From NCBI GenBank assembly GCA_014237975.1, contig JABACA010000005.1, forward strand, positions 2,473 through 66,472: 64,000 nucleotides of DNA. The letters are read 5' to 3'. The translations under genes and the position numbers were made by a program. This document shows positions 39,513-59,059 of this stretch, in pieces. The notes under the pieces were generated by a model. It was not told the origin of the DNA. It did no database searches and worked only from the letters and a program-made list of their open reading frames with translations. The DNA comes from Mariniblastus sp. GTDB lineage: Bacteria; Planctomycetota; Planctomycetia; Pirellulales; Pirellulaceae. Position 1 is the first letter of the stretch. Each line of letters opens with the position of its first letter.

Positions 39513-40424
39513 ATGAGTAACTCCTACCAACTGACCCATCTGAAACAGCTTGAAGCTGAGTCCATTCATATCATACGCGAGGTGGTAGCCGAATTTAGCA
39601 ACCCGGTCATGCTGTATTCGATCGGGAAAGACTCGTCGGTCATGGTGCATTTGGCACTCAAGGCGTTTTACCCAGCCAAGCCACCGTTTTCCCTGATGCA
39701 TGTTGACACCCTGTGGAAATTTCGCGACATGTACAAGTTTCGCGAAGAATACGCCAAGAAAGAATTGGGACTGGAAGTCATTACGTATGTCAACGAAGCG
39801 GGTGCCGCGCTGGGGCTGGATCCATTGGTCGCCAGCGGGAAACATACCACGGTGATGAAAACCGAAGGGCTGAAACAAGCGCTGGACAAGTACCAGTTTG
39901 ACGCCGCCTTTGGTGGTGCACGGCGGGACGAGGAAAAATCAAGAGCCAAAGAACGAGTTTACTCGTTTCGAGACCGCAATCACCGGTGGGACCCCAAAAA
40001 CCAACGGCCCGAGCTTTGGAACCTGTACAACTCGCGGGTCAACAAGGGTGAGAGCATCCGGGTGTTTCCGTTGTCCAATTGGACAGAACTCGATGTATGG
40101 CAATATATCCATCTGGAGCAGATCCCGATTGTTCCCCTTTATTTTGCGGCCAAGCGACCGGTAGTCATGCGAGACGGAGTCATGATCATGGTGGACGACG
40201 ACCGCCTTGCCTTGGAACCGAACGAGCAGCCGGAAGAAAAAATGGTGCGTTTTCGAACGCTTGGTTGTTACCCGCTGACCGGGGCGGTTGAATCAGAAGC
40301 AACTACGCTGCCGGAAATTATCCAAGAAATGTTGTTGGCGACGACCTCTGAGCGCCAAGGCCGAGTCATTGATAACGATGACGAGGGTACCATGCAGCAA
40401 AAGAAAGAAGAAGGTTATTTTTAG
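39513..40424 (+). CDS. cysD: Sulfate adenylyltransferase subunit 2
   Basis: ORF 39513..40424. [48 protein letters not shown] and ELWNLYN together make a canonical CysD. Confidence 0.95.
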
Positions 40425-40507
40425 AGATTCAAGAATCGAACGGAATTACCAAGTTTTTTGTTTTACCGCAGCTTCGCTGCGAGCCTCCTTGTTAAAAGAA
40501 AGCAAAC

Positions 40508-42424
40508 GTGTCGCATCAATCCGAGCTCATTGCATCAGACATCGACGCTTACCTGGCGCAGCACGAACAAAAAGAGCTGTTGAGGTTTTTGACTTGCGGC
40601 AGTGTCGATGATGGCAAAAGCACCCTGATTGGCCGGCTGCTTTACGATTCAAAGATGATCTACGAGGATCAGTTGGCCAAGATTGAAAAGGATTCCGTCG
40701 CCCACGGCACGACCGGCGGTTCGTTCGACCCTGCTCTGTTGACCGACGGACTCAAGGAAGAACGAGAGCAGGGAATCACGATCGATGTTGCTTACCGTTA
40801 TTTTTCTACGGCCAAGCGGAAGTTTATTATTGCCGACACGCCCGGCCATGTTCAGTACACGCGCAATATGGCCACCGGCGCCTCCACGGCCGACCTGGCC
40901 GTTATTCTCATCGATGCCCGCAAGGGAGTCTTGGAACAGACCAAGCGGCACAGCTTTATCGCGTCACTGTTGGGTATCAAGCACGTTCTGGTCGCGATCA
41001 ACAAAATGGACCTGGTCGATTTTGATGAACAGGTTTTCGAGCAAATCCAGAAAGACTATCGGGAATTTGCTTCCCGCCTGGATAGCACCGACCTGCATTT
41101 CATACCGATTTCTGCGCTCGATGGGGATAACGTTGTTAACCTGAGTGAACGCTCGCCCTGGTACCAGGGCAGTACGCTGATGAATTTTCTGGAAAGCGTG
41201 TACATCGGTTCGGATCGCAACTTGGAAGATTTTCGGTTTCCCGTTCAATATGTCCTGCGCCCCAATCTCGATTTCCGCGGCTTTTCCGGAACGGTTTCCT
41301 CCGGGATCATTCGCAAGGGCGACGAGGTCATGGCCCTGCCTTCCAGGAAAACAAGCCACGTCAAAGACATTGTGACGTTTGATGGCAGCCGCGACGAAGC
41401 ATTTGCACCGTTGAGTGTCACGCTGACATTGGAGGATGAAATTGATGTGAGCCGTGGCGACATGCTGGTCCGACCCGGCAACGTACCGAAAAGTGAGCAA
41501 AAATTTGATGCGATGATCGTCTGGATGGCCGAACAGCCGATGATTCCCGGGAATCAATACCTGTTTAAGCATACGACCAAAACCGTACCGGGTTCGTTTA
41601 CAACATTGCGTTACTGCGTGGACGTCAACACGATGCATCGGCAGCCATCCCCGGCCTTGGAGTTGAATCAGATCGGCAGGGTGAACGTCTCGTTGAACCA
41701 GCCTATCGCGTTTGACCGGTATCGCAGAAACAAATCAACCGGGGCGTTCATCGTGATCGATCGAATCACGAATGTGACGGTGGCAGCGGGCATGATTCTC
41801 GATCGTCGGACCAGTGAAGACGAGGCAGGCCACTGGGACGAAGAACCCCACAGCGAATCATTAACGCAGGAAATCAGTAATGTTTCTCCGGAGGAACGTG
41901 CGGCCAGGTATGGCCAGACACCAGTGACCCTGTTGCTCACAGGTTTGCCTGGCGCAGGAAAATCGTCGACCGCTTATGGCCTGGAGCGAAAGCTGTTTGA
42001 CCTGGGCCGAAGTGCTTTTGTGGTGGATGGACAGAATATGCGGCTTGGCATCAGCCGAGACCTCGGTTTCAGCGCGGTCGATCGTTCCGAAAACCTGCGG
42101 CGGGCTGCCGAATTAGGGAAACTGATGAACCGCAACGGTTTGGTTTGCATACTGGCTTTGGTCGCGCCCAGCGAGGAGGCGCGCGAGAAAGCGGCGCAGG
42201 TTGTCGGCACGGACCATTTCCTGGTCGTTCACCTGACGGCGCCGGCAGAAGTTTGTGCGGCCAGGAATCAAGACGTTCGGGATGGTGAAACAACCGAGCG
42301 GGCAGCGCTGGATTACCAAGAACCCGTCAAGGCAGACCTGACACTGGATACCGAGAAACTCGATACGGTCGCGTGTGTCGATGAAATCACAAAACTACTG
42401 GAATCAAAGCAGTATATTGAATAG
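40508..42424 (+). CDS. cysN: Bifunctional sulfate adenylyltransferase subunit 1 / adenylylsulfate kinase (CysN-CysC fusion)
   Basis: ORF 40508..42424 with a GTG start. The GTPase motifs are [20 protein letters not shown] and NKMD. The C-terminal APS kinase has P-loop [10 protein letters not shown] and ...[16 protein letters not shown]. Confidence 0.95.
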
Positions 42425-47900: not shown

Positions 47901-48743
47901 CCGGGAACCTACCGGTTTCATGATTCGATGGACAATGGCGCTACCATTCAGGTTGAAATACTGATTGAAGACGACCGCCTGGTGATTGATTTTGAGGGTA
48001 CCGACCCGGTTTGCAATGACAACCTGAACGCCAATCGCGCCATTGTTTCGGCGGCCGTCATGTACGTCATGCGCTGCCTGATTGACGAAGACATTCCTCT
48101 CAACCAGGGGGTCATGAATCCCGTTTCAATCAAGTTGCCGGTCTGTTTTCTGAATCCAACACCCGCCGAAGATCCTCTGCAAAGCCCGGCGGTAGTGGGT
48201 GGTAATGTTGAAACGTCACAACGGGTAGTAGACGTGATGCTGGCAGCGCTGGGGATGGCAGCCGCCAGCCAGGGAACGATGAACAACTGGTTAATGGGAG
48301 ATCGTTCATTTGGCTATTACGAAACGGTCTGCGGAGGATCCGGGGCCACCGCCCAGGCCGATGGCGTTGACGGTGTCCACACCCACATGACCAATACCCG
48401 ATTAACGGATCCCGAAATTCTGGAGCAACGGTACCCGGCCATTCTCCGGCAGTTTTCAATTCGCAAAAACAGCGGCGGCAGCGGGCGGCGGCGGGGAGGT
48501 TCTGGAATTCATCGCGAGATCGAATTCCAGCGACGTTTAACCATCTCCCTGTTAACCAGTCGCCGCAACACCAAGCCGTTTGGAATGGCTGGTGGTGGTC
48601 CCGGTCAATCCGGTGTGAACCAGGTCAAAACGGTCGACGGGAAGGTCCAGCTGCTGCCCAGCCAATGTGAAATCGAGGTGTCACCCGGCGATCGGTTGAT
48701 TCTGTTGACACCAGGTGGAGGCGGCTACGGTTCCGTCGACTGA
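44946..48743 (+). CDS. Fused hydantoinase/oxoprolinase family protein (HyuA-like + HyuB-like; 5-oxoprolinase-type)
   Basis: ORF 44943..48743; the ATG at 44946 follows the track's TTG. The N-terminus has VDVGGTFTDC and GTTRGTNALLTR. The middle has GFDMGGTSTDVS. The C-terminal half has NVKERLDFSCAVF, NDPYQGGSHLPD and TRLTDPEILE. Confidence 0.9.
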   Translation: MTQSDSSNRLPRWSFWVDVGGTFTDCLAESPDGSQFSTKVLSSAVTKGVLPEPAQRNQFCDVGQSSKSPGFWNGATVRFLNDSGESFCQATVVDFQDGQFKCDALKALPTGTKYELQPAISAPLLAMHSIINLPIQQALPDCDLHLGTTRGTNALLTRTGARTALVTTTGFGDLLAIGDQTRPHLFQLEITKPDPLFEKSIEIDERVLADGTVERSPDLSVVRQQMWELRESGIQSIAICFMNSYQWPNHERQVAQVAEEVGFESVRVSSQLAPSIKIIPRGETCVLDAYLNPVIGNYLDGIQSRLTRQSRLRLMTSAGGLVSRERFSGKDSVLSGPAGGVVGAARVAEQLGFGRAIGFDMGGTSTDVSRYDGCFEHEFESRKAGVRIVSPILALETVAAGGGSICWFDGKRMLVGPASASADPGPACYGGGGPLTITDINLFLGRIAAREFPIPLDQDAVHQRLGEIHQTIQQAGFDLTLQQMAEGFLDIANNNMASAIRSISVSQGYDPADYLLVSFGGAGSQHCCAVADKLNITRILDHPQSSILSAVGIQLADQSGFANQSVLRPLAEMKPQLRQSIFSQLRESVIRKLEGDGNSQDSVLCKNQLDLRYVGTDPCLTITEPADGDFESCFESTHTRLYGYTQSKPIEVVAARVEGVVRGRPLQQLAPLPGNEPACRPVTTSQVIQFADILPGDRIQGPAMIVDQFKTTIVDPHWLAVAQANGSLLLARAASTDPSTDRQQPETAAQPSPIQLEIFNSHFSAIAKQMGIALQKTSTSVNVKERLDFSCAVFTRDGDLVVNAPHIPVHLGAMSETVRSTIRLNPSVQPGDVFLTNDPYQGGSHLPDVTTVTPVFEPSTKDLVFWVASRSHHAEIGGKAPGSMPADASCLGEEGVLIQNFKLISAGREQFGALRKWLTRPPYPSRSPEDNLGDIAAQVAANRRGQNDLLQLVAQYSRGQVEQYMQFMQQAAEAKVRLALKKRFQPGTYRFHDSMDNGATIQVEILIEDDRLVIDFEGTDPVCNDNLNANRAIVSAAVMYVMRCLIDEDIPLNQGVMNPVSIKLPVCFLNPTPAEDPLQSPAVVGGNVETSQRVVDVMLAALGMAAASQGTMNNWLMGDRSFGYYETVCGGSGATAQADGVDGVHTHMTNTRLTDPEILEQRYPAILRQFSIRKNSGGSGRRRGGSGIHREIEFQRRLTISLLTSRRNTKPFGMAGGGPGQSGVNQVKTVDGKVQLLPSQCEIEVSPGDRLILLTPGGGGYGSVD

Positions 48744-48744
48744 G

Positions 48745-49770
48745 CTAACCGTTTGCCATGTTCTGGAACTGGCCAATCTCGGGGTGGATAACTCGAGCGT
48801 CGACCCGTTTAAGGCTCTTTTGTAGCAGCGACAGCATTTCCGGATCATGATAAGTGCCAACAATCGCGCCGCCGCTGCCACAATATTTGGCACTGGCGCC
48901 CACGGAACGGGCCAGCTCTACCAGGCGAACATGCTCCGGGTGAAGGCTGCACAACTGACGACGTAAGTCAAAATTCTGGTTGATTAAATTGGCAAGAAGT
49001 GGCTGGTCGTTTTCCAACAAGGCGGTGCGGCCCTGTTCTGCATAGTCCGCAAATTGACCCATGGCATCAATCACGACCGATTCACGGTCCTCGAACCGTC
49101 GTTTGAGATCGTTGTGGAAAACCTCTGTCGGTTCACTCGCACTGGGACAAAACGCAACGTAGATATTAGGTAACAAGGTTGGGTCGAGACGTTCGTATTT
49201 TCCAAATGACAAGCCCCGTTCGGTCTGGATTTGCGATTCTGCGAAATCCATGTAAATCAGTCCTTCATAGGCCTGGATAACCCGATCCTGCAGCCCGGCC
49301 GGTATTCCCAAATCAGCTTCTACACTCAGCGTCAGCGATGCGAGCAGGTGGGGTGCAATCGAGATGCCGTACCAGTCGGCCAAGCCTCGCAGTGCGGCCG
49401 TGATAATCGCGCTGGAACCGGCTAGCCCCACCTGCCGCGGAATGTTGCTGTGGTATTGAATGCGAAAGTTGTCAGCCTGAACGCCGGAGTCAGCCACGCA
49501 AAATTCAAAAAAACGTTTGATGGATGCTTTCAGCAACCGGACACCACCGTAGTAGCCCTCGTTCTGTACTCGGCCGGCAAGCTGCTCGATACTTTCAAAT
49601 TCCAATCCCTCGTTGGCCCCTGGCTGTATCGTGAGCCGGTTAGCCGAATACATGTCTACCTGGGCTGCAAAATCGCCCACGATCAAGGATATCGTTTTGC
49701 CATGATATCCATCGGAGGGGTTTCCAAGCAAACCTGCCCGCGCGTAGCCTCGTCGACTAATGTGTTTCAC
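48745..49770 (-). CDS. GHMP-family sugar kinase resembling plant-type glucuronokinase
   Basis: ORF 48745..49770. It carries ARAGLLGNPSDGYHGKTISL, NEGYYGGVRLL, the GHMP motif NIPRQVGLAGSSAII, GIPAGLQDRVIQAYEGLIYMDF and SAKYCGSGGAIVG. I recall these motifs as matching the glucuronokinase (GlcAK) family. The start overlaps the upstream gene's stop by 14 nt. Confidence 0.65.
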   Translation of the reverse strand: MKHISRRGYARAGLLGNPSDGYHGKTISLIVGDFAAQVDMYSANRLTIQPGANEGLEFESIEQLAGRVQNEGYYGGVRLLKASIKRFFEFCVADSGVQADNFRIQYHSNIPRQVGLAGSSAIITAALRGLADWYGISIAPHLLASLTLSVEADLGIPAGLQDRVIQAYEGLIYMDFAESQIQTERGLSFGKYERLDPTLLPNIYVAFCPSASEPTEVFHNDLKRRFEDRESVVIDAMGQFADYAEQGRTALLENDQPLLANLINQNFDLRRQLCSLHPEHVRLVELARSVGASAKYCGSGGAIVGTYHDPEMLSLLQKSLKRVDARVIHPEIGQFQNMANG

Positions 49771-50656
49771 GTGTTGATCCCGTTTCCCGACAAACTTTGT
49801 TCACAACATCCCGTAATTGCGGATCGGCCAAAGCATGGTGAATGAAGGACTCAGTGTAGGATTCCAGATTGCCAATGTCAAAACGCCGTTCTGCCGTACC
49901 CAGCTTTACGCCAAATGCTCTTGAGCCAGATTGGATCATTTGCCGGATTGCATCGGTCAACTGGATTTCATTGCCCTTTCCGCGAGGCGTTTCGCGGAGC
50001 GCGCTAAAGATTTTTGGGCTAAAGACATAGCGAGCGGTAACCGCCAGATTACTGGGCGCTTCCTGAAGGCTGGGTTTCTCGACCAAATCGGCCAGCTCAA
50101 ATACGGAATCGTCCGACAACGGCTTGGCAATTCCAAAACGATCAACTTTTTCGGGAGACACGGTTTCAAACGCGATGACGATATCGGCTTGCCGCTCGTC
50201 AAACAATCGAATCATCCGTTGAAGCACATTATCGGATCCTTGCGAATCAATCACACAGTCACCCAGGGCAACCACCACCGGCTCGTCTTGGGCCAGTAAC
50301 TCCCCCACGGCGACGGCATGCCCGAGGCCCAGCTGTTCCGTTTGAATGGCCGTCTCCAGCTTCATTGCCGCGGCAGCCGACTGAGACCAGAGGCGTTGGG
50401 CCAGCTCCGGCTTTCCCGTTTCCTGAAGATGACGTTCCAGGTCAGGACCTTGCTTGAAATAATCTGCTATTCCTGATTTTGCCGGCGAGCTAATAAGAAT
50501 CGTCCTGCGGATGCCGGCTTGCCATAATTCCTCAATCACATACTGCAGAGTCGGCTTGCCAGCCAAGGGGAGAAGCTCCTTGGGAATTGCCTGGGTGATG
50601 GGCAACAAGCGTGTTCCCAGCCCCGCTACAGGCACGATTGCCGTTTTAATTGCCAT
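49757..50656 (-). CDS. galU: GalU-type UTP--sugar-1-phosphate uridylyltransferase
   Basis: ORF 49757..50656. It carries AIVPVAGLGTRLLPITQAIPKELLPL, GLGHAV and ...EKP..., the nucleotidyltransferase fold of the GalU family. Sugar specificity cannot be decided from the sequence. Confidence 0.8.
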   Translation of the reverse strand: MAIKTAIVPVAGLGTRLLPITQAIPKELLPLAGKPTLQYVIEELWQAGIRRTILISSPAKSGIADYFKQGPDLERHLQETGKPELAQRLWSQSAAAAMKLETAIQTEQLGLGHAVAVGELLAQDEPVVVALGDCVIDSQGSDNVLQRMIRLFDERQADIVIAFETVSPEKVDRFGIAKPLSDDSVFELADLVEKPSLQEAPSNLAVTARYVFSPKIFSALRETPRGKGNEIQLTDAIRQMIQSGSRAFGVKLGTAERRFDIGNLESYTESFIHHALADPQLRDVVNKVCRETGSTRETH

Positions 50657-50706: not shown

Positions 50707-50759
50707 AAATGCCCGCGAAAGAAGTAGCGGGTAACAATGGTTACGCCCAGCGGGCATTT
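50707..50759 (-). terminator. Inverted repeat AAATGCCCGC...GCGGGCATTT (10-bp arms, 33-nt spacer with nested short stems) overlapping the stop of the upstream gene
   Basis: Read directly from the sequence. On the minus strand the 3' arm is followed by TTTGATC. The terminator/attenuator role between the exosortase paralog and galU is speculative. Confidence 0.3.
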
Positions 50760-52377
50760 AATGGCCAAGTGCTGATTCCAACCGGTCCACGTTTGATTTC
50801 AGTTGATCGATCAGCTGAAGATCGGGTTGGTCGAAAAACTGAACGAACACCTTGAAGTAAACACGATGAGGCAAAAACATTTCAGGCAATGAGGGTGAAC
50901 CCCAGGCGGGAAAATGTCCGAGCAGGTCAGTCGTGGGCCGCTGGCTGGCGGCAAGTTCTTTGATGAACAATAGCCCTTTTTCTCCACTCTCTTTTGCCAT
51001 TTCGATTACTTGCAAATCGTTATCGACCGAGACATCCACGACGTTCCAATGGTGCCGCTTTTGTTGGGCAGCCGGATCTGCCCAGCGACCTTCCAGTTCC
51101 GACGCGGAAACGAGGCACTGGACGCCGTCAAAATAGTAGTACCAGCGGTACTCGAGAGCCCCCGTCGAACTGGTTGTGTTACGTTGTATTGATTGATATC
51201 GAACCAGATCGGACAAAGGCTCGACGGTGAAATCGTCGGCCTCTATCAAGGTGGAAAGTTGACCGGAAACCGGTTTTTCAATTGCCAGAAAACGGGCGTA
51301 TCCTATGCCGCCGAACAGAGCTGACAGCAGGGCAACAGCCACCAACAGGCTGGCGGGCACCGTGGTTTGCCGAGAGTGACGGCGAGCCGATTTCTCAATC
51401 ACCCGGCTGGCCAGGCAGCGGTTCCAGAATTTCCCAGCTTTACCGACCAGGTCAGACGACGACTCCAGGCTCTCTTGTGTCACAGGCCCGAACCAAAATG
51501 CCAGAAATTGGTCCGTTGAAATAATCAACAAGACGGTCGCGACGACGATCAACACCTCGATCAACGAGGTTGATTCTACTGTTACATCAACGAACATCAA
51601 TTGAAACAACACGCCCAGAGTGACCAGCAAAACAGTTTGGCCAAACACGGCCCAAAAACCAACCGAAATCAATAACAAGAACGCATGAAACAAACGCCGT
51701 GCATAAAGTCCAACCAAGGTCAGCCCGACGGCGACAAGGAATGGAACACCCAGCATTGACCGGACGGAAAAATCCAATGGCAAGATTCGCAATTCGTCAT
51801 TGAATCGAAAAGGAATTTCTTCGTCGGCAATTAGTATCCCGGGCACACGCAATATTGGCTCACTGCAATAAAGACCCAGTTGACTCAACCAGTCATTGAT
51901 CGCCATGTCAATTGAAAACAGTGGAAGCAGTAATGCCAGCAGCGGCAAAACGACACCGCCATACACCCGTTTACCAGCGGTGGTGCGAATGGAACTTTCG
52001 ATCGCAAACAGCATCAAGACAAGTGCGGCAGCCAGCAGCCAAGGATCGGCAAAAACAAATAGCAACGTATTGCAAATTAAAGCGCCGGCCAGGCAGGCTG
52101 CCCCGGGCGCGCCAAAATGAAACAGTGTTTCTTTTCTAAAATTTTGAAACAAGCGGGCGAACAGGATTGCCCCGCTACAGGCAATCACGTACCCAATCGT
52201 TTCATAACCTGCCCGGGGATAAATCACACACCAGTAAACAGAAGCAAAGACTGTCTGGGCCAATGCGGCAACCACAATCAGCACCAACGGAATTCGATGG
52301 TGATTCGATTCGGTATTTGGTTGGTCAGACATCAATGCGATTTGGATGGAGTCGTGGAACGATGGGGGCAGGGTCAA
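50758..52377 (-). CDS. Exosortase-EpsI-like paralog lacking the conserved Cys/Arg/His residues (putative pseudo-exosortase)
   Basis: ORF 50758..52377. It has the same architecture as the upstream exosortase: a polytopic N-terminal region, a linker, a TM helix and a periplasmic domain. Collinear matches are DPW..LPL..INDWLSQL, WAVF and LLIISTDQFLAFWFG versus LLLLSTDQVLFFLFG. The CSG position reads DFSVRS (51757-51774). Confidence 0.55.
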   Translation of the reverse strand: MTLPPSFHDSIQIALMSDQPNTESNHHRIPLVLIVVAALAQTVFASVYWCVIYPRAGYETIGYVIACSGAILFARLFQNFRKETLFHFGAPGAACLAGALICNTLLFVFADPWLLAAALVLMLFAIESSIRTTAGKRVYGGVVLPLLALLLPLFSIDMAINDWLSQLGLYCSEPILRVPGILIADEEIPFRFNDELRILPLDFSVRSMLGVPFLVAVGLTLVGLYARRLFHAFLLLISVGFWAVFGQTVLLVTLGVLFQLMFVDVTVESTSLIEVLIVVATVLLIISTDQFLAFWFGPVTQESLESSSDLVGKAGKFWNRCLASRVIEKSARRHSRQTTVPASLLVAVALLSALFGGIGYARFLAIEKPVSGQLSTLIEADDFTVEPLSDLVRYQSIQRNTTSSTGALEYRWYYYFDGVQCLVSASELEGRWADPAAQQKRHHWNVVDVSVDNDLQVIEMAKESGEKGLLFIKELAASQRPTTDLLGHFPAWGSPSLPEMFLPHRVYFKVFVQFFDQPDLQLIDQLKSNVDRLESALGH

Positions 52378-52391
52378 GCGACCCAGCCGGG

Positions 52392-54200
52392 CTAAGGTTT
52401 CGTCGCTTCGTCTTTCAGTTTCTGGGGCGTTGTCTCGCGCAGCGGCTTCCCCGCTCTCTTGGCAAGAAATTCTTCGCGCAATTGTTCGCGAACAACCAGA
52501 AAATGGCTTCTGATTTCGTCCATTGCCTGCTGGGTGAATTCACCGTATTGGGAAACAAAGGCTTGCGTTTGGTAGGTTTCACTTTGGAATAGACTGCCGC
52601 GTATGCGATGGGTCAGACGGTTTTGTGCGCGGATAAAGAAAGAGTTTAGCGTACCCCAGTTGCGAGGCGCCCACATCGGGTCTCCAAACGCGTCGAACAG
52701 ACTAAAGAGGAGGAACCCGTACTCCCCCGTGTCTTTCTGGAAATGGGCTTCGATGTAAGGCCACTGAACGGTATCTCCGTCGACTTCGATCGTGCTATAT
52801 AGCAACTTTCGTTTGGTAAGCTTCCAGCCCGTATTTCGATAGCAAGTCGTCAGTTCGTGCCATCCAGGAAATGTCTGGTCCATCGAGATCGTTGAGCGAA
52901 GACGCCGAGCCGGGGTTTCATAAATCCAGGTATCGGACCGCAGGCCCAAGTCACTTCCCCGCGAGCGGTTTTGTGCCCGATAGTCAATCTGTGTCCACTT
53001 CAAATCTTCCCCGCCGGGCCCCACCGTTGACATGTTCAAAGGCAAGTCCGCCTGAGAAAAAGGCTTGGTGACATCCGTGGAAAAGAACTGAACACTGAAT
53101 TTAGGACGAGAGTAGGATCGAACCACATCGACGAACTGGAATGCGCCGGCCAACAATATCAAAATGGCTGCCGACCATATCGCGTACAGCCCGATTTTGG
53201 AGATGGGCCGACGCCAGTTTTTTCGCTTGCTGTTAGCCTGCTCCTCGTTCCGCGGTTCCACGAGGTTGCTCCACATCGAGCTGAGCAGACGGGACACTCG
53301 CCCCGTTTTTTGTTCCGGGTTGTTTCCCGAACCAAACAGGAAAAACAAAACCTGGTCGGTGCTGAGCAACAGCAAAATGCCGAGCGTCAAGGTTCCATAT
53401 CCAAGTAATTCGTGCGGAAAACCAACCGACAGGTCAACATTCCACCAGTAATCTGCAACCGGAATCATGATGATTCGAATCGAATTCATGAAAACGGCCC
53501 AGACCACCGCGGCTGCGATCAAAACCAGGCTGCGAAACAGGGGCCGACGCTCCCAGATCACAAAAACAATTGCCACAAACAGCAACGTGAAAAACGATTG
53601 GACTCCACTGCAGGCGTTTTCGATGTTGTACAGTCGGCTGCCGGGAATCTCGATGAGGGTTCCCGACAGATGGTGGTTCATTCCAAAAATATCCAGCGTA
53701 CTGCTGGTCACCGACGCACTGAGGCGCTGCAACCAGTTGATGAGCGTATAGTCGCCACCATTGGGAATGATCAAAGCTACGTAAAGCGGAAGCGATGCGA
53801 TGGACATGCCGCGTCCCGTTTCCGAATCGACCGTCCGGGCCAACAAGCTGGACACTAACAACATCACGCTCAGCGCAGAAAACCACGGCGATAAAAACAC
53901 ATATCCCGCCAAGCAGCAAACGATCCCCATGACAAACAAGCAAACGCTCCACGAGCTTCTGTAATATTTGAGCTGCTTGTCGCGCGGCCATCGATTGTAG
54001 GCAATCAGGCAGGTGGCCAGCACTGCAAATGGCGCAAATTGATAATGGGGCCGACTCCACAGCTCGCGGGCATACAGCACGATCATGGGCAGCTGTGCCA
54101 ATATGGCGATGCCATAAGGTAGCCAAACCTTGTCGAAGTAGCCTGCGCCGAAGGATCCGCGAGGTTTCCTGTCGGCAGTTGGAACAGATGCAGAGGACAT
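52392..54200 (-). CDS. Exosortase (EpsH family) fused to a C-terminal EpsI-like periplasmic domain
   Basis: ORF 52392..54200. It has about 8 TM helices. The catalytic-type motif is NIENACSGVQSF (Cys codon 53610-53612), followed by the Arg in FMNSIRIIMIP and the His in GFPHELLGYG. After an additional TM helix there is a ~250-aa domain with the EpsI-like FPGWHELTTCYRNTGW. Confidence 0.75.
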   Translation of the reverse strand: MSSASVPTADRKPRGSFGAGYFDKVWLPYGIAILAQLPMIVLYARELWSRPHYQFAPFAVLATCLIAYNRWPRDKQLKYYRSSWSVCLFVMGIVCCLAGYVFLSPWFSALSVMLLVSSLLARTVDSETGRGMSIASLPLYVALIIPNGGDYTLINWLQRLSASVTSSTLDIFGMNHHLSGTLIEIPGSRLYNIENACSGVQSFFTLLFVAIVFVIWERRPLFRSLVLIAAAVVWAVFMNSIRIIMIPVADYWWNVDLSVGFPHELLGYGTLTLGILLLLSTDQVLFFLFGSGNNPEQKTGRVSRLLSSMWSNLVEPRNEEQANSKRKNWRRPISKIGLYAIWSAAILILLAGAFQFVDVVRSYSRPKFSVQFFSTDVTKPFSQADLPLNMSTVGPGGEDLKWTQIDYRAQNRSRGSDLGLRSDTWIYETPARRLRSTISMDQTFPGWHELTTCYRNTGWKLTKRKLLYSTIEVDGDTVQWPYIEAHFQKDTGEYGFLLFSLFDAFGDPMWAPRNWGTLNSFFIRAQNRLTHRIRGSLFQSETYQTQAFVSQYGEFTQQAMDEIRSHFLVVREQLREEFLAKRAGKPLRETTPQKLKDEATKP

Positions 54201-54664: not shown

Positions 54665-55654
54665 TCAAACGCAGGGAGTCTGGATACTTATTTCCGCCGA
54701 CCACGGCAGCTGATCGCGGTACCAGCGAACACACTGCTCCAGACCTTCATCCAGCCCTGTCGCGGGCTGCCAATTTAACTGCCGATTGGCTTTGGAAATA
54801 TCGGCCCACGTGGAATCGATATCGGCTTTGTGAAACGGCTTGTTTTCTATCCGAGCTGTCTTGCCCAACAGCGATTCAAGTTTTTCAATGATGGTAATGA
54901 GACTGATCGGTTGGTTCCCGCCCCCCAGGTTAAAGATTTCATAGCCGACCGGTTTCAAGGCCGCGATGGTGCCTCGCGCGATGTCGTCGACAAAGGTAAA
55001 GTCTCGGGACTGGGTCCCGTCGCCGAACAGTTCGATCGGCTGTTCCTGGTCGATCCATTTGATGAAACGGAAAATAGACATGTCCGGTCGACCGGCGGGC
55101 CCGTAGACAGTGAAATACCGGCAAATCGAGACATCAATCCCATACAAAAAGTGATGAGAATAGGCCATCAGCTCCGCCGATTTTTTGGATGCCGCATAAG
55201 ACGATATGGGCGTATTAACCGGCAAGTCTTCGGTGAAGGGCATTGACTGTCCCGCGTACAACGAGGATGTGGATGCCAACATGTACTTACCCACGTCATG
55301 CTTGCGCATGGCTTCTAGCAGGTTCAAACTGCCAAGGGCATTGGTCGTCATGTAAACCAACGGGTTTTCCATGCTGTAGCGGACTCCTGCCCGGGCAGCC
55401 AGATTGACGACCGTGTCGAAATCAAACTCCTCGAATAAATCCCCAATGGCATCACAATTTTCGAGATCGATTCCGCGAAAATCGAATCCGGACTGTTTTT
55501 CGAGCTGCTGTAATCGGTGCCGCTTGAGGGAAACGTCATAATAATTATTCATGTTGTCGATGCCAACAACATGCTGCCCCTGGTCGGTTAACAATGCGGC
55601 GACACGCGAGCCAATAAATCCCGCGGATCCGGTAACCAAGATCGACTTTGTCAT
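54665..55654 (-). CDS. NAD-dependent epimerase, UDP-glucuronate 4-epimerase-like
   Basis: ORF 54665..55654. It carries ILVTGSAGFIGS, GIDNMNNYYDVSLKRHRL, AARAGVRYSMENP, the catalytic YAASKKSAE and YFTVYGPAGRPDMSIFRF. These patterns are typical of the GAE/Cap1J group of extended SDRs. Confidence 0.7.
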   Translation of the reverse strand: MTKSILVTGSAGFIGSRVAALLTDQGQHVVGIDNMNNYYDVSLKRHRLQQLEKQSGFDFRGIDLENCDAIGDLFEEFDFDTVVNLAARAGVRYSMENPLVYMTTNALGSLNLLEAMRKHDVGKYMLASTSSLYAGQSMPFTEDLPVNTPISSYAASKKSAELMAYSHHFLYGIDVSICRYFTVYGPAGRPDMSIFRFIKWIDQEQPIELFGDGTQSRDFTFVDDIARGTIAALKPVGYEIFNLGGGNQPISLITIIEKLESLLGKTARIENKPFHKADIDSTWADISKANRQLNWQPATGLDEGLEQCVRWYRDQLPWSAEISIQTPCV

Positions 55655-56668: not shown

Positions 56669-57664
56669 TTAACCAAATCGTTTTTTGAACCAGTCAAGCG
56701 TGATTTCCAAACCGCGCTCAAACTGGGTGTTTGGCTGATAATCAAGGTACTGTTCTGCCAGTGAAATATCAGCCAACGAGTGCTTCACGTCACCTTCACG
56801 AGGGTCCTGATAAACGGCGTCTACCGTTGCGCCCGTCAGCGTTTTGATCGCCTGAAACAACTGGTTAACAGTCACCCGTTCACCGACCGCGACATTATAT
56901 GCCCTGCGACTGGCTCCGGGAGTGGTTGTAAACATGCCTCGCACATTTGCCTGCACGGCGTTCGAAACGAAAGTAAAATCACGGGACTGTTCTCCGTCAC
57001 CGTTGATGAACGGCGGCTGGTTTTTAAGAAGTGCGTCCATGAACAACGGAATAACGGCGGCGTAAGGGCCGTCAGGTTTTTGACGAGGGCCATAGACATT
57101 GAAATACCTCAACCCGACCGTTTCGAGCCCGTAACACCGCCCGAACGTACCGGCGTACACTTCGTTGGTGTATTTGGTGGCCGCATAGGGCGAGAGTGGA
57201 TCGCCAATTTGGGACTCGACTTTTGGCATCTCGGGACTGTCTCCATATACCGATGAACTACTGGCGTAAACGAACCGCTTTACGCCCGCATCTTTGGCGG
57301 CCGTCATCAGATTCAGAAAACCAGTCACGTTAGCCGCATTGGTGGCTAGTGGCGTTTCGATTGACCGGGGAACCGAACCGAGCGCTGCCTGATGGGATAC
57401 ATAGTCGATATTGGCGCAGGCGGTTTGGCAGTCGGATTCATTGGTAATATCAAGTTCTAAAAACTGGACGTTGGGGAGCTCAATGAAATCGGCAATGTTT
57501 TCCAGTTTTCCTTCACACAGGTTGTCCATAATGCGCACTTCGCCAGCACCATGGTGGACCAAGTACTCGACAATGTTTGAGCCGATAAAGCCGGCCCCAC
57601 CCGTAATCAAAAAAGAGCAGTTGGAAATATCTGTACGGTGGAAATTATCGTTATAAAGAGGCAT
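56669..57664 (-). CDS. NAD-dependent UDP-HexNAc(A) 4-epimerase (WbpP/TviC-like)
   Basis: ORF 56669..57664. It carries FLITGGAGFIGSN, HQAALGSVPRSIETP, YASSSSVYGD, YAATKYTNE, RYFNVYGPRQ.PDGPYAAVIP and GDGEQSRDFTFV. Confidence 0.75.
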   Translation of the reverse strand: MPLYNDNFHRTDISNCSFLITGGAGFIGSNIVEYLVHHGAGEVRIMDNLCEGKLENIADFIELPNVQFLELDITNESDCQTACANIDYVSHQAALGSVPRSIETPLATNAANVTGFLNLMTAAKDAGVKRFVYASSSSVYGDSPEMPKVESQIGDPLSPYAATKYTNEVYAGTFGRCYGLETVGLRYFNVYGPRQKPDGPYAAVIPLFMDALLKNQPPFINGDGEQSRDFTFVSNAVQANVRGMFTTTPGASRRAYNVAVGERVTVNQLFQAIKTLTGATVDAVYQDPREGDVKHSLADISLAEQYLDYQPNTQFERGLEITLDWFKKRFG

Positions 57665-57727: not shown

Positions 57728-59059
57728 TCAAGCTTTCCAAATCTTATGGCGACCATCTTTGACTTCTTTGGTTGCATTGCGCGTGTCGACAACCAGTTCG
57801 CAATGAGACACCAGAAAATCATAATCAAAAACGCTGTGATCGGTGGCAATTAATGCACAATCCAGACCCGCCAGATAGTCAGCCGTCATTTCGCTGCTGT
57901 CCATCTCGGGCACGTCAAAGCTCCGCATTCTTGGCAGGTGCGGGATGTGAGGATCGCAATAACTCAGCTCGGCGCCGCGCTCGGCCAACAACTCCAGCAG
58001 TTTAAAAGAAGGACTTTCCCGAGGGTCATCTACGTTTTTCTTGTAAGCCATCCCCAGGATGCCAATGCGACTGCCTTTGACAGGCTTGCCTTGGGAATTA
58101 AGGGCTTCGGCAACTTTGTGGACAACGTACAAAGGCATGCTCGTATTAATCTCGCCCGCCAGCTCGATAAATTTGGTCGGGATTTCATGTTTGCGGGCAA
58201 CCCAACTCAAATAAAACGGATCAATCGGGATGCAGTGTCCGCCCAAGCCGGGCCCCGGATAAAACGCCTGGAACCCAAACGGCTTTGTTTTAGCAGCGTC
58301 GATGACCTTCCAAACATCAATCCCGATTTTATCGAACAAGATTTTCAGTTCATTGGCCATCGCAATATTGACACTGCGATAGGTGTTTTCCAGGATCTTA
58401 CAAGCCTCGGCGATTTCACACGAATCGACCGGCACGGTCTTGGTTACGGCCTTGGAGTACATTGCATCGGCAATGTCACGGCTCGGTTCGTCATAACCCC
58501 CAACCACCTTGGGAATGGTCGCGGCCACAAAGTTCTGGTTGCCGGGATCTTCCCTTTCCGGGCTGTAGGCAACAAACAGCTCTTTGCCTATGGCAAGCCC
58601 CGACTTTTCCAAGGCAGGCACCACGACATCTCGGGTGGTACCCGGATAGGTAGTGCTTTCCAATACGATCAACTGACCGGGCCGAGCAACCTGTGCAATG
58701 GCATTGGTAGTTTGAACCACATAATTCAGATCCGGGTCACGGCTTTCGGTCAGGGGCGTTGGAACACAGATCAGGATAGCATCTGGTTCACTCAGTCGCT
58801 GCATGTCGCAGGTTGCTTCAAACTTGTCTTGGTCGACCCACTGCTGCACCATCTGGTTACTGATATGGGCAATGTAGCTTTGGCCAGCATTGAGCGCATC
58901 GACCTTGCTCGGGTCCACATCGAAACCCAGGCACTTGAAACCAGCTCTGAAAAACGCGTCGATCAATGGCAGGCCGACGTAGCCCAGGCCAATCACACCG
59001 ATCAGGGCCGTTTGAGTTTCTATTTTGCTTCGAAGACTTTCAGCGGACGACGACATCAA
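57728..59059 (-). CDS. Nucleotide-sugar 6-dehydrogenase (UDP-GlcNAc/UDP-ManNAc dehydrogenase type; TviB/WbpO/WecC-like)
   Basis: ORF 57728..59059. It carries IGVIGLGYVGLPL, ILICVPTPL, SPEREDPGN, KILENTYRSVNIA and the catalytic FYPGPGLGGHCIPIDP. Confidence 0.85.
   Translation of the reverse strand: MMSSSAESLRSKIETQTALIGVIGLGYVGLPLIDAFFRAGFKCLGFDVDPSKVDALNAGQSYIAHISNQMVQQWVDQDKFEATCDMQRLSEPDAILICVPTPLTESRDPDLNYVVQTTNAIAQVARPGQLIVLESTTYPGTTRDVVVPALEKSGLAIGKELFVAYSPEREDPGNQNFVAATIPKVVGGYDEPSRDIADAMYSKAVTKTVPVDSCEIAEACKILENTYRSVNIAMANELKILFDKIGIDVWKVIDAAKTKPFGFQAFYPGPGLGGHCIPIDPFYLSWVARKHEIPTKFIELAGEINTSMPLYVVHKVAEALNSQGKPVKGSRIGILGMAYKKNVDDPRESPSFKLLELLAERGAELSYCDPHIPHLPRMRSFDVPEMDSSEMTADYLAGLDCALIATDHSVFDYDFLVSHCELVVDTRNATKEVKDGRHKIWKA

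What the first reader, a model, noticed from the sequence alone, without database searches (positions are those of the whole stretch)
48745..50656. Glucuronokinase-like GHMP kinase translationally coupled to a GalU-type uridylyltransferase: a predicted bacterial GlcA salvage route to UDP-GlcA
Seen in sequence: the GHMP kinase (48745..49770) has N-terminal ARAGLLGNPSDGYHGKTISL, NEGYYGGVRLL, NIPRQVGLAGSSAII, GLQDRVIQAYEGLIYMDF and SGGAIVG blocks. From memory these match plant glucuronokinase rather than galacto-, mevalonate- or homoserine kinases. Its start codon lies 14 nt inside the end of a GalU-type nucleotidyltransferase (49757..50656). A UDP-glucuronate 4-epimerase-like gene sits 4 kb upstream in the same strand block (54665..55654). 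Established knowledge: in plants GlcA is converted to GlcA-1-P by GlcAK and then to UDP-GlcA by a UDP-sugar pyrophosphorylase of a different family. Bacteria normally make UDP-GlcA with UDP-glucose dehydrogenase, and I see no clearly Ugd-type gene in this locus. Inference: the pair could form a kinase/uridylyltransferase salvage module that supplies UDP-GlcA (and then UDP-GalA) to the adjacent polysaccharide machinery. In that case the GalU-type enzyme would accept GlcA-1-P.
Basis: partly seen in the sequence, partly recalled or inferred. Interest (0 to 1): 0.6.

Follow-up and report, generated by a model that had tools for sequence, protein, structure and literature searches.

The report
Bacterial glucuronate-to-UDP-glucuronate salvage gene pair
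Two overlapping genes of a marine planctomycete encode a kinase of the plant/fish glucuronic-acid-kinase family and a GalU-like enzyme; together they probably recycle free glucuronic acid into UDP-glucuronic acid for a neighbouring exopolysaccharide locus, a route known in plants and fish that I found no biochemical test of in bacteria.

Summary
A 341-aa GHMP kinase (48745-49770, minus) starts 14 nt inside the end of a 299-aa GalU-type gene (49757-50656).

The kinase belongs to the glucuronokinase family. It is 41-44% identical over its full length to plant and fish glucuronokinases.

Evidence for functional coupling of the two genes:
- In 80 genomes from many phyla, a GalU-type gene lies next to the kinase in 60.
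- Some bacteria fuse the two into one protein.
- In a sample of 201 Planctomycetota, GalU-type genes occur almost only where the kinase occurs.

Evidence for a link to uronic-acid nucleotide sugars:
- In this lineage the module sits beside an exosortase U locus that holds a UDP-glucuronate 4-epimerase-like gene.
- In a Phycisphaerae genome it sits between ugd-like and epimerase genes.

- A Ugd-type gene exists elsewhere in the genome, so salvage is an extra route, not the only one.
- In other relatives the pair stands alone.

No enzyme activity has been tested. Whether the GalU-type enzyme accepts GlcA-1-P is inferred.

This scan has already reported the same pair on other DNA (98 notes in at least 82 genomes), and follow-ups reached the same reading. 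It is a new variant of a known pathway and of moderate interest.

The parts
48745..49770 (-). Glucuronokinase-family GHMP kinase, 341 aa, GTG start (P0001)
   Evidence: Pfam GHMP_kinases_N and _C. No NCBIfam equivalog model is reached. It is 41-44% identical over its full length to plant glucuronokinase and 42% to fish glucuronokinase. It sits inside the GlcAK clade in the tree. It shares 53 columns that are nearly invariant in both the bacterial and the eukaryotic members, among them the family-specific R112, R163, H219 and R270. dN/dS against the Mariniblastus MAG is 0.07.
49757..50656 (-). Divergent GalU-type sugar-1-phosphate uridylyltransferase, 299 aa (P0002); proposed GlcA-1-P (and probably Glc-1-P) uridylyltransferase
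   Evidence: PF00483, 113 bits. TIGR01099 galU scores 249.3 bits, below the cut-off of 326.8. Best PDB relatives are YngB and H. pylori GalU. The catalytic and uridine/phosphate-binding residues are kept, and the glucose-contact Asp is replaced by Cys. It is the only GalU-type gene in the genome. It is 39% identical to the N-terminal domain of the bacterial fusion P0127. dN/dS is 0.08.
49757..49770 (-). 14-nt overlap between the end of the GalU-type gene and the start of the kinase (translational coupling)
   Evidence: Read directly from the sequence. The same 14-nt overlap is found in the Mariniblastus MAG. Relatives also show small gaps or overlaps, from a 2-nt gap to a 17-nt overlap.
54665..55654 (-). 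UDP-glucuronate 4-epimerase-like SDR, the likely consumer of UDP-GlcA
   Evidence: PDB hits: 5u4q (249 bits), the 6zl6/6zla set (211 bits) and MoeE5 (143 bits). The Arg aligned with BcUGAepi Arg185 is kept (PMC12338863). A 67%-identical orthologue lies directly upstream of the fused GalU-GlcAK gene in L137.
52392..54200 (-). Exosortase U (context: exopolysaccharide / protein-sorting locus)
   Evidence: PF09721 and NF033780. A 40%-identical orthologue sits in the fusion-bearing loci. An exosortase also lies directly upstream of the pair in L049.
50758..52377 (-). 539-aa ORF between the exosortase and the pair; no family hit here
Evidence: No Pfam or NCBIfam hit.
57728..59059 (-). Nucleotide-sugar 6-dehydrogenase of the UDP-HexNAc type, not Ugd
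   Evidence: TIGR03026 409.7 bits. The best specific models are UDP-ManNAc dehydrogenase (254 and 236 bits) and TviB (191 bits), against Ugd models at 158 and 128 bits. A TviC-like epimerase follows at 56669-57664.
39513..42424 (+). CysD and CysN/CysC (PAPS synthesis), a conserved neighbour of the module in this lineage
   Evidence: PAPS_reduct, and GTP_EFTU plus APS_kinase. The same genes flank the pair or the fusion in L136-L139.

Best explanation
The two genes form a salvage module. The kinase phosphorylates free D-glucuronic acid at C1 with ATP, giving alpha-D-GlcA-1-phosphate. The co-translated GalU-type enzyme then joins this to UTP, giving UDP-GlcA and pyrophosphate.

In this genome the UDP-GlcA is probably passed to the UDP-GlcA 4-epimerase-like enzyme 4 kb upstream and to the glycosyltransferases of the exosortase U / sulfotransferase locus. 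A de novo route (UDP-Glc to UDP-GlcA by a Ugd-type enzyme on another contig) exists as well.

P0002 is the only GalU-type gene in the genome, and the one eukaryote-type UDPGP gene carries an in-frame stop. P0002 therefore probably also makes UDP-Glc, which would make it a dual-substrate enzyme doing the job of the plant UDP-sugar pyrophosphorylase.

Shown here: gene structure, family membership of the kinase, intact catalytic residues, purifying selection, and coupling by adjacency, fusion and co-occurrence. Inferred: both substrate specificities and the destination of the product.
For: Kinase family:
- 41-44% identity over the full length to plant glucuronokinase, and 42% to a cyprinid 'glucuronokinase with putative uridyl pyrophosphorylase'. 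I take the cyprinid protein to be the orthologue of the characterised zebrafish enzyme; it shares that name and carp family, but its identity to DrGKUP was not measured. The zebrafish and Arabidopsis enzymes are specific for GlcA (PMC3938481, PMC2823444).
- The next-best families are far off: HddA-like structures at E 2e-13, and mevalonate kinase at 43 bits.
- In the tree, P0001 lies within one compact GlcAK family, while the genome's own GalK and IspE sit on branches of 3.9 and 5.8.
- 53 columns are nearly invariant across 26 bacterial and 8 eukaryotic members. R112, R163, H219 and R270 are absent from GalK.

Coupling of the two genes:
- 14-nt overlap.
- A GalU-type gene is adjacent on the same strand in 60 of 80 species genomes spanning Planctomycetota, Verrucomicrobiota, Acidobacteriota, Chloroflexota, Fibrobacteria, proteobacteria and CPR. 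Six of the other 20 loci are cut by a contig end.
- Single-ORF GalU-GlcAK fusions exist in bacteria.
- Eukaryotes fuse the kinase to a different NTP-transferase subfamily, and relatives of that subfamily lie next to GlcAK-like kinases in two Planctomycetota.
- In 201 Planctomycetota, 24 have a GalU-type gene and 22 of these have the kinase. All 17 genomes with a strong kinase orthologue have a GalU-type gene.
- The common pyrophosphorylase of the phylum is PF01704, found in 172 of 201.
- All five kinase-bearing genomes without adjacency have a GalU-type gene elsewhere.

Link to uronic-acid nucleotide sugars:
- A UGAepi-like epimerase lies in the same strand block.
- An orthologous epimerase lies directly upstream of the fusion in one genome, and the same gene order (an SDR epimerase of the same size and Pfam families) is seen in two more.
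- A Phycisphaerae MAG has Ugd-like, GlcAK, GalU and epimerase in one operon.

Other:
- Both genes are under purifying selection (dN/dS 0.07-0.08).
- No UxaC for glucuronate catabolism was found (genome 94.8% complete).
Against: - No activity has been measured for any bacterial member in the literature I could search.
- The pyrophosphorylase domain of the zebrafish fusion showed no UDP-GlcA-forming activity in vitro (PMC3938481). The second step therefore has no positive control in the fused or operon-linked nucleotidyltransferases discussed here; in plants it is done by USP of another family.
- Eukaryotic UGPases tested with GlcA-1-P used it poorly, below 10% of Glc-1-P for the two enzymes quoted (PMC12203929). 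I did not establish whether E. coli GalU was among the six enzymes tested.
- P0002 keeps nearly all glucose-contact residues. Its one change (Asp to Cys after the Mg-binding Asp) is at a position that is Val in the active Klebsiella enzyme (and in E. coli GalU), so it is not diagnostic.
- In most genomes checked, the kinase-linked GalU is the only GalU-type gene. It could therefore simply be the UDP-Glc enzyme.
- A Ugd-type gene exists, so the cell does not need salvage.
- 14 of 80 kinases have no GalU within 3.5 kb.
- No source of free GlcA was identified; no MIOX was found, though that search rang in no control genome either, so it is weak evidence.
Confidence: 0.63

Rival explanations
1. 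The GalU-type enzyme is an ordinary Glc-1-P-specific UDP-glucose pyrophosphorylase that feeds Ugd. The operon groups two separate entries into UDP-GlcA supply, and GlcA-1-P from the kinase is uridylylated by another enzyme, for example the PF01704 UDPGP-family protein, which belongs to the same Pfam family as plant USP.
For: - P0002 is the only GalU-type gene in the genome, and the kinase-linked copy is the sole GalU in four of five other genomes checked.
- In the Phycisphaerae operon the GalU passes the GalU equivalog cut-off and sits beside a Ugd-like gene.
- All catalytic and most glucose-contact residues are kept.
- PF01704 proteins are nearly universal in the phylum.
Against: - In Planctomycetota, GalU-type genes are almost confined to genomes with the kinase (22 of 24). 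About 170 genomes manage without GalU, which is odd for a housekeeping UDP-Glc role.
- Fusion into one polypeptide and stop/start overlap point to consecutive steps.
- In this genome the PF01704 gene has an in-frame stop.
- P0002 scores below the GalU equivalog cut-off.
Confidence: 0.17
2. The bacterial kinase clade uses a sugar other than GlcA (for example GalA, another uronate or a neutral hexose), and the pair makes a different UDP-sugar.
For: - Identity to characterised enzymes is only 41-44%, and GHMP sugar kinases can shift specificity.
- A more distant GHMP kinase clade (28-31% identical) is also paired with GalU-type genes. So a kinase+GalU pairing is not in itself specific for GlcA.
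- The locus predicts 4-epimerised uronic acids.
Against: - 53 columns are shared as near-invariant with the eukaryotic GlcA-specific enzymes. They include four basic or His residues that the distant clade and GalK lack.
- Arabidopsis GlcAK rejects GalA, Glc, Gal, Xyl and Ara (PMC2823444).
- The kinase co-occurs in operons with Ugd-like and UGAepi-like genes, both of which act on UDP-GlcA.
Confidence: 0.12
3. The pair has a catabolic or signalling role, or the adjacency has no functional meaning.
For: No sugar-nucleotide product has been shown. 14 of 80 loci lack adjacency. In G043 and G137 the neighbours are housekeeping genes.
Against: - Adjacency in 60 of 80 genomes across many phyla, plus independent fusions.
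- Gangl et al. state that no pathway other than UDP-GlcA formation is known to use GlcA-1-P (PMC3938481).
- Both genes are under strong purifying selection.
Confidence: 0.04

Closest known systems
Arabidopsis glucuronokinase GlcAK1 (At3g01640, EC 2.7.1.43) acting with UDP-sugar pyrophosphorylase USP: the myo-inositol oxygenase / salvage route to UDP-GlcA (PMC2823444)
   Same: The kinase is of the same family: 41-44% identical to a plant glucuronokinase, with all motifs and 53 shared near-invariant columns. The proposed two steps are the same, GlcA to GlcA-1-P to UDP-GlcA.
   Different: The second enzyme is a ~300-aa GalU-type PF00483 protein, not the ~600-aa PF01704 USP. The genes are translationally coupled in an operon. 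No MIOX was found. Bacterial homologues were noted in 2009 ('a few bacteria'), but I found no characterisation of them.
Zebrafish DrGKUP, a bifunctional glucuronokinase / putative UDP-GlcA pyrophosphorylase (PMC3938481)
   Same: A glucuronokinase domain joined to a short bacterial-type nucleotidyltransferase. This is the same pairing logic as the operon here and as the bacterial fusions P0124-P0129.
   Different: The eukaryotic N-terminal domain belongs to another NTP-transferase subfamily. It is 25% identical to P0002 (E 8e-7) and is closer to the 249-aa neighbours of GlcAK-like kinases in L029 and L030 (E 1e-15 to 1e-16). Its pyrophosphorylase activity could not be shown in vitro. That paper stated that the prokaryotic homologues of the pyrophosphorylase domain are stand-alone proteins, without a kinase.
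Bacterial GalU / YngB UDP-glucose pyrophosphorylases (TIGR01099; PDB 7b1r, 3juk, 2e3d)
   Same: Same fold and length. E-values of 1e-46 to 1e-54 to solved GalUs. Residues equivalent to E. coli A16, G17, R21, K31, E32, Q109, G114, D137, G179, E201 and K202 are all kept.
   Different: P0002 scores below the equivalog cut-off (249 against 326.8 bits). The glucose-contact Asp (YngB Asp134) is Cys here and Ser in 85% of the kinase-linked set. The clade has its own insertions and conserved residues. Its distribution in Planctomycetota follows the kinase.
Other sugar-1-kinase plus nucleotidyltransferase salvage pairs: AmgK/MurU (MurNAc), Bacteroides Fkp (fucose), HddA/HddC (heptose) (from my own knowledge)
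   Same: An anomeric kinase followed by a nucleotidyltransferase, often adjacent or fused, bypasses de novo synthesis of the nucleotide sugar.
   Different: Different sugars, and in part different kinase families. None of them makes UDP-GlcA.

Membership tests
Glucuronokinase (EC 2.7.1.43; plant GlcAK / zebrafish GK clade of GHMP kinases) | GHMP kinase architecture (N- and C-terminal domains, P-loop-like GLxGSSA motif) | tested here: met
   PF00288 at 48.1 bits and PF08544 at 22.1 bits. The PRQVGLAGSSAI motif is present.
Glucuronokinase (EC 2.7.1.43; plant GlcAK / zebrafish GK clade of GHMP kinases) | Full-length similarity to characterised glucuronokinases that exceeds similarity to any other GHMP subfamily | tested here: met
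   41-44% identity to a plant glucuronokinase and 42% to a cyprinid GKUP, with E about 1e-69 to 1e-75. The best other family is HddA-like, at E 2e-13 in PDB and 41 bits in NCBIfam.
Glucuronokinase (EC 2.7.1.43; plant GlcAK / zebrafish GK clade of GHMP kinases) | Phylogenetic placement inside the clade that holds the characterised enzymes' close orthologues | tested here: met
   Quick ML tree of 46 rows. P0001 falls in the bacterial GlcAK group, sister to the bacterial fusions (SH-aLRT 98). Eukaryotic GlcAKs are nested in the same compact family, and GalK and IspE sit on very long branches. Caveats: short search, no bootstraps, unreliable rooting, and the Arabidopsis and zebrafish sequences themselves were not available.
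Glucuronokinase (EC 2.7.1.43; plant GlcAK / zebrafish GK clade of GHMP kinases) | Family-specific conserved residues shared with the eukaryotic enzymes | tested here: met
   53 columns are at least 95% conserved in bacteria and at least 90% in eukaryotes, with the same residue. R112, R163, H219 and R270 are absent in GalK and in the distant GalU-linked kinase clade. Their role in binding the carboxylate is my inference; I found no close solved relative in the PDB search (best hit HddA-like, E 2e-13).
Glucuronokinase (EC 2.7.1.43; plant GlcAK / zebrafish GK clade of GHMP kinases) | ATP-dependent formation of GlcA-1-P with specificity for D-GlcA | not testable with these tools
   Needs an enzyme assay.
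GalU, UTP-glucose-1-phosphate uridylyltransferase (TIGR01099) | Score at or above the curated equivalog cut-off | tested here: not met
   249.3 bits against a cut-off of 326.8.
GalU, UTP-glucose-1-phosphate uridylyltransferase (TIGR01099) | Catalytic, uridine-binding and phosphate-binding residues of solved GalUs | tested here: met
   The equivalents of E. coli/Klebsiella A16, G17, R21, K31, E32, Q109, G114, D137, G179, E201 and K202 are all present (residue list from PMC11796359 and PMC7961091).
GalU, UTP-glucose-1-phosphate uridylyltransferase (TIGR01099) | Glucose-contact Asp after the Mg-binding Asp (YngB Asp134, P. aeruginosa D131) | tested here: not met
   Cys134 in P0002, Ser in 85% of kinase-linked GalU-types and Thr in the kinase-first set. 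The position is Val in the active Klebsiella enzyme (PMC11796359) and in E. coli GalU, so this does not exclude GalU activity.
GalU, UTP-glucose-1-phosphate uridylyltransferase (TIGR01099) | Formation of UDP-Glc from Glc-1-P plus UTP; use or rejection of GlcA-1-P | not testable with these tools
   Needs an enzyme assay.
Plant-type UDP-sugar pyrophosphorylase USP (PF01704 UDPGP family) | UDPGP fold of about 470-620 aa | tested here: not met
   P0002 is PF00483, 299 aa. The genome's only PF01704 gene is elsewhere and carries an in-frame TAA.
Eukaryotic GKUP 'UP' nucleotidyltransferase domain | Close similarity to the N-terminal domain of fish/cnidarian GKUP | tested here: not met
   25% identity, E 8e-7. 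By contrast P0002 is 39% identical, E 2e-64, to the N-terminal domain of the bacterial fusion.
UDP-glucuronate 4-epimerase (for ORF 54665-55654) | Closest solved relatives are UDP-GlcA 4-epimerases, and the carboxylate-binding Arg is present | tested here: met
   The 6zl6/6zla set scores 211 bits and MoeE5 143 bits, against about 116 bits for E. coli GalE structures and up to 139 bits for the best chain named UDP-glucose 4-epimerase. Arg in '...YGPAGRPDM' aligns with BcUGAepi Arg185 (PMC12338863). The assignment of 6zl6/6zla to B. cereus UGAepi and of MoeE5's activity is from my memory. The top hit, 5u4q, is deposited under a dehydratase name.

The most novel reading that the evidence does not exclude
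The kinase-linked GalU-type proteins are a bacterial counterpart of plant USP. On this reading they are dual-substrate UDP-sugar pyrophosphorylases that take both Glc-1-P and GlcA-1-P. Nature has coupled them to glucuronokinase at least twice independently: a GalU-type partner in bacteria (operon and fusion) and a UP-type partner in eukaryotes and a few Planctomycetota.

In this organism the enzyme would be the sole working UDP-hexose pyrophosphorylase. The module would recycle glucuronate into a sulfated, uronic-acid-rich exosortase-linked polymer.

A bacterial enzyme of this kind would also be the missing positive control for the unproven pyrophosphorylase half of the animal GKUP proteins.
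Probability: 0.3. Interest if true: 0.6.

Novelty: new variant of a known kind. Interest (0 to 1): 0.45.

Why it matters
UDP-GlcA is the donor for uronic-acid polysaccharides and the precursor of UDP-GalA, UDP-Xyl and UDP-Ara4N. In bacteria it is generally attributed to Ugd alone.

A kinase/pyrophosphorylase bypass present in at least 583 species genomes would have several consequences:
- Many environmental bacteria could build envelope or exopolymer sugars directly from scavenged glucuronate, for example from algal or animal glycans.
- It would affect metabolic models and the interpretation of ugd mutants.
- It would supply compact, soluble bacterial enzymes, including natural fusions, for one-pot synthesis of UDP-GlcA. 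The one-pot hyaluronan cascade listed (PMC6888640) mentions glucuronokinase; that such cascades use the plant enzyme is from my memory.
- It would allow a test of the unresolved second half of the animal GKUP enzymes.

Tried and rejected
- NCBIfam and PDB sequence searches of the kinase gave only weak hits to mevalonate, heptose and galactose kinases. These families were rejected as homes for it.
- I looked for a solved glucuronokinase structure and found no close relative in the PDB search.
- I tried to find which GalU residues face the C6 hydroxyl of glucose, to judge whether P0002 has room or charge for a carboxylate. The two structural papers were not held and the P. aeruginosa paper gave no match. 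The comparison of group-specific residues showed clade-specific changes but nothing decisive.
- The sigma-70 promoter and terminator scan around the pair found no more than shuffled sequence gives.
- A 10-bp inverted repeat downstream of the preceding ORF folds modestly (z -2.2) and is not kept in the Mariniblastus MAG. It was dropped.
- MIOX and UxaC were not found in the genome. The MIOX search rang in no control genome, so it is weak evidence.
- I first thought the polysaccharide neighbourhood was coincidental, because G043 and G137 have the pair among housekeeping genes. The fusion-bearing loci and the Phycisphaerae operon changed that view.
- I did not run a complex prediction, because I do not claim that the two proteins bind.
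Full report
**Observation.** The minus strand carries a 299-aa ORF (49757-50656, ATG) and a 341-aa ORF (48745-49770, GTG).
- The GTG at 49770 lies 14 nt before the last base of the TAG that ends the upstream ORF.
- GTG 49770 is the first start codon of its open frame. The next in-frame candidate, a TTG, lies inside the conserved N-terminal ARAGLLGNPSD block, so it is the only start that keeps that block.
- Pfam gives GHMP_kinases_N/C for the kinase and NTP_transferase for its partner.

**The kinase.** No curated NCBIfam equivalog comes near its cut-off; the best are mevalonate kinase at 43 bits and HddA at 41 bits. The closest solved structures are HddA-like heptose kinases at E 2e-13.
- The large protein collection holds more than 8000 relatives. 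The closest is from a Mariniblastus MAG (79% identical), and many are named 'glucuronokinase' by JGI.
- A search among longer proteins found plant glucuronokinase (Ambrosia, a tandem form, 41-44% identical over the whole length) and fish, cnidarian, tunicate and choanoflagellate 'glucuronokinase with putative uridyl pyrophosphorylase' (41-45%, E about 1e-69).
- The Arabidopsis enzyme is specific for D-GlcA and rejects Glc, Gal, Xyl, Ara and GalA (PMC2823444). The zebrafish kinase domain is likewise GlcA-specific (PMC3938481).
- In a quick maximum-likelihood tree of 46 kinases, P0001 lies in a bacterial group that is sister to the bacterial fusion proteins (SH-aLRT 98). The eukaryotic glucuronokinases fall within the same compact family. 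The genome's own galactokinase and IspE sit on branches of 3.9 and 5.8 substitutions per site.
- Fifty-three alignment columns are nearly invariant in both the 26 bacterial and the 8 eukaryotic members. R112, R163, H219 and R270 are family-specific. I suggest, as inference only, that some of these bind the carboxylate.
- Membership of the glucuronokinase family is therefore well supported. Specificity for GlcA is inferred.

**The partner.** P0002 is clearly GalU-like (E 1e-46 to 1e-54 to solved GalUs) but scores 249 bits against the GalU equivalog cut-off of 326.8.
- Mapped on E. coli GalU, all residues listed for catalysis and for binding uridine and phosphate are kept (PMC11796359, PMC7961091).
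- The Asp that contacts glucose in YngB (Asp134) is Cys in P0002, Ser in 85% of kinase-linked relatives and Thr in the kinase-first set.
- That position is Val in the active Klebsiella enzyme and in E. coli GalU, so the change is suggestive at most.
- I could not establish which residues face C6 of the sugar.

**Are the two genes functionally coupled?** Four independent lines say yes.
1. *Adjacency.* A pattern scan of one genome per species found at least 583 genomes with the kinase. Among the best 80 loci, a GalU-type gene lies next to it on the same strand in 60 (51 GalU-first, 9 kinase-first), 6 loci are cut by a contig end and 14 have none within 3.5 kb. The loci come from Planctomycetota, Verrucomicrobiota, Acidobacteriota, Chloroflexota, Fibrobacteria, delta- and gamma-proteobacteria and a CPR bacterium.
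2. *Fusion.* Bacterial proteins of 603-633 aa join a GalU-type domain (39% identical to P0002) to the kinase (52-54% identical). Three of them (P0125, P0127, P0128) were confirmed as single open frames. The eukaryotic fusions use a different nucleotidyltransferase subfamily (25% identity, E 8e-7 to P0002). Stand-alone relatives of that subfamily lie next to GlcAK-like kinases in two Planctomycetota. The kinase has thus been joined to a nucleotidyltransferase at least twice.
3. *Co-occurrence.* In an even sample of 201 Planctomycetota, 24 genomes have a GalU-type gene and 22 of them have the kinase. All 17 genomes with a strong kinase orthologue have a GalU-type gene, adjacent or not. The usual pyrophosphorylase of the phylum is instead the eukaryote-type PF01704 protein (172 of 201). 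The genomes are related, so these counts overstate independence, but they span at least 14 families.
4. *Selection.* Against the Mariniblastus MAG, dN/dS is 0.07 for the kinase and 0.08 for the partner.

**Link to uronic-acid nucleotide sugars.** The ORF at 54665-55654 matches 5u4q best (249 bits, deposited under a dehydratase name) and then the 6zl6/6zla set (211 bits), which I take from memory to be B. cereus UDP-GlcA 4-epimerase. It matches these far better than E. coli GalE structures (about 116 bits) and keeps the Arg aligned with Arg185, which holds the carboxylate of UDP-GalA (PMC12338863).
- In other Planctomycetia (G043, G137) the pair stands alone among housekeeping genes. The module is therefore portable.
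- In the window's own lineage the neighbourhood is old. The Mariniblastus MAG keeps the full gene order.
- The three fusion-bearing genomes (kinase about 52% identical) place the fused gene directly after an SDR epimerase and an exosortase, with CysNC and CysD convergent, as in the window. In L137 that epimerase is 67% and the exosortase 40% identical to the window's; in L138 and L139 the same order is seen by size and Pfam families.
- Independently, a Phycisphaerae MAG has Ugd-like, GlcAK, GalU and epimerase on one strand. Three further loci have kinase, GalU and epimerase.
- This is the best available evidence that the bacterial kinases deal with glucuronate.

**Corrections and open points.**
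- The dehydrogenase in the window (57728-59059) is of the UDP-HexNAc type and pairs with a TviC-like epimerase.
- The genome does have a Ugd-type gene next to gyrA on another contig (TuaD model 479 bits). Salvage would add to, not replace, the de novo route.
- P0002 is the only GalU-type gene of this 94.8%-complete genome, and the single PF01704 gene has an in-frame TAA. I could not check that stop against reads.
- If the stop is real, P0002 must also make UDP-Glc, which predicts a dual-substrate enzyme. The same facts feed the main rival reading, that P0002 is simply the UDP-Glc enzyme.
- No UxaC and no MIOX were found. The source of free glucuronate is unknown.

**Literature and earlier notes.**
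- Bacterial homologues of the kinase were mentioned in 2009 ('a few bacteria', PMC2823444).
- The zebrafish paper stated that the prokaryotic homologues of the pyrophosphorylase domain are stand-alone proteins, without a kinase. It could not show activity for the fused domain (PMC3938481).
- I found no biochemical study of a bacterial glucuronokinase or of a GalU-type GlcA-1-P uridylyltransferase.
- This scan has flagged the same pair repeatedly on other DNA (98 notes in at least 82 genomes), and follow-ups reached the same reading. I re-derived the main points independently here.

**Verdict.** This is a bacterial variant of the plant/fish GlcA salvage route that uses a GalU-type second enzyme. 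Confidence in the full two-step mechanism is about 0.63, and interest is moderate.

Noticed in passing
G000 contig C364, L009:1303-2697 (outside the window): The genome's only eukaryote-type UDPGP (PF01704) gene has a single in-frame TAA in a conserved stretch (...LANSGCL*EMRDRGIEYV...). Every one of the roughly 150 copies listed for the other Planctomycetota sampled is open. It could be a real nonsense mutation or an assembly error.
   Followed up: partly
L036:1462-2469, L037:1420-2457, L038:1459-2451, L039:233-1222 (Planctomycetota genomes G120, G139, G046, G175): A second, distant GHMP kinase clade, 28-31% identical to P0001. It lacks the GlcAK-specific R112, R163, H219 and R270 and groups towards galactokinase. 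It is also directly adjacent to GalU-type genes (39-43% identical to P0002). This is probably a sugar-1-kinase/GalU module for another sugar.
   Followed up: partly
L029:1201-3182 and L030:695-2397: GlcAK-like kinases (33-35% identical) lie next to 249-aa nucleotidyltransferases. These match the N-terminal 'UP' domain of animal GKUP fusions (27-28% identity, E 1e-15 to 1e-16) better than P0002 does. They are a possible prokaryotic counterpart of the eukaryotic fusion.
   Followed up: partly
L115:2168-6723 (Phycisphaerae MAG): One-strand cluster of Ugd-like (TuaD model 469 bits), glucuronokinase, GalU (358 bits, above the equivalog cut-off, overlapping the kinase by 13 nt) and a UGAepi-like epimerase. 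It is a compact UDP-GlcA/UDP-GalA supply operon that combines de novo and salvage entries.
   Followed up: partly
L138:1-436 and L139:1-588: The fusion-bearing loci begin with a heparinase II/III-like gene, upstream of UDP-GlcNAc 2-epimerase, a dehydrogenase, an exosortase, an epimerase and the fused GalU-GlcAK gene.
   Followed up: no
window 48743-48745: The stop codons of the convergent 1266-aa oxoprolinase-like gene (ends 48743) and of the kinase (ends 48745) are separated by a single base. This leaves no room for a terminator between them. In the Mariniblastus MAG the two genes are called as overlapping.
   Followed up: no
window 50707-50759 (minus strand): A perfect 10-bp inverted repeat (AAATGCCCGC ... 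GCGGGCATTT, followed by TTT) begins 1 nt after the stop of the 539-aa ORF. The fold has a z-score of -2.2, and the arms are not kept in the Mariniblastus MAG.
   Followed up: yes
window 49757-50656 (P0002) and L136:9115-10014: P0002 and its Mariniblastus orthologue share substitutions at positions that are almost invariant in other kinase-linked and canonical GalUs: Lys to Gln22, Arg to Ile104 and Tyr to Phe174. The orthologue also has Ala for the otherwise invariant Pro25. The lineage is unusually divergent but still under purifying selection.
   Followed up: partly
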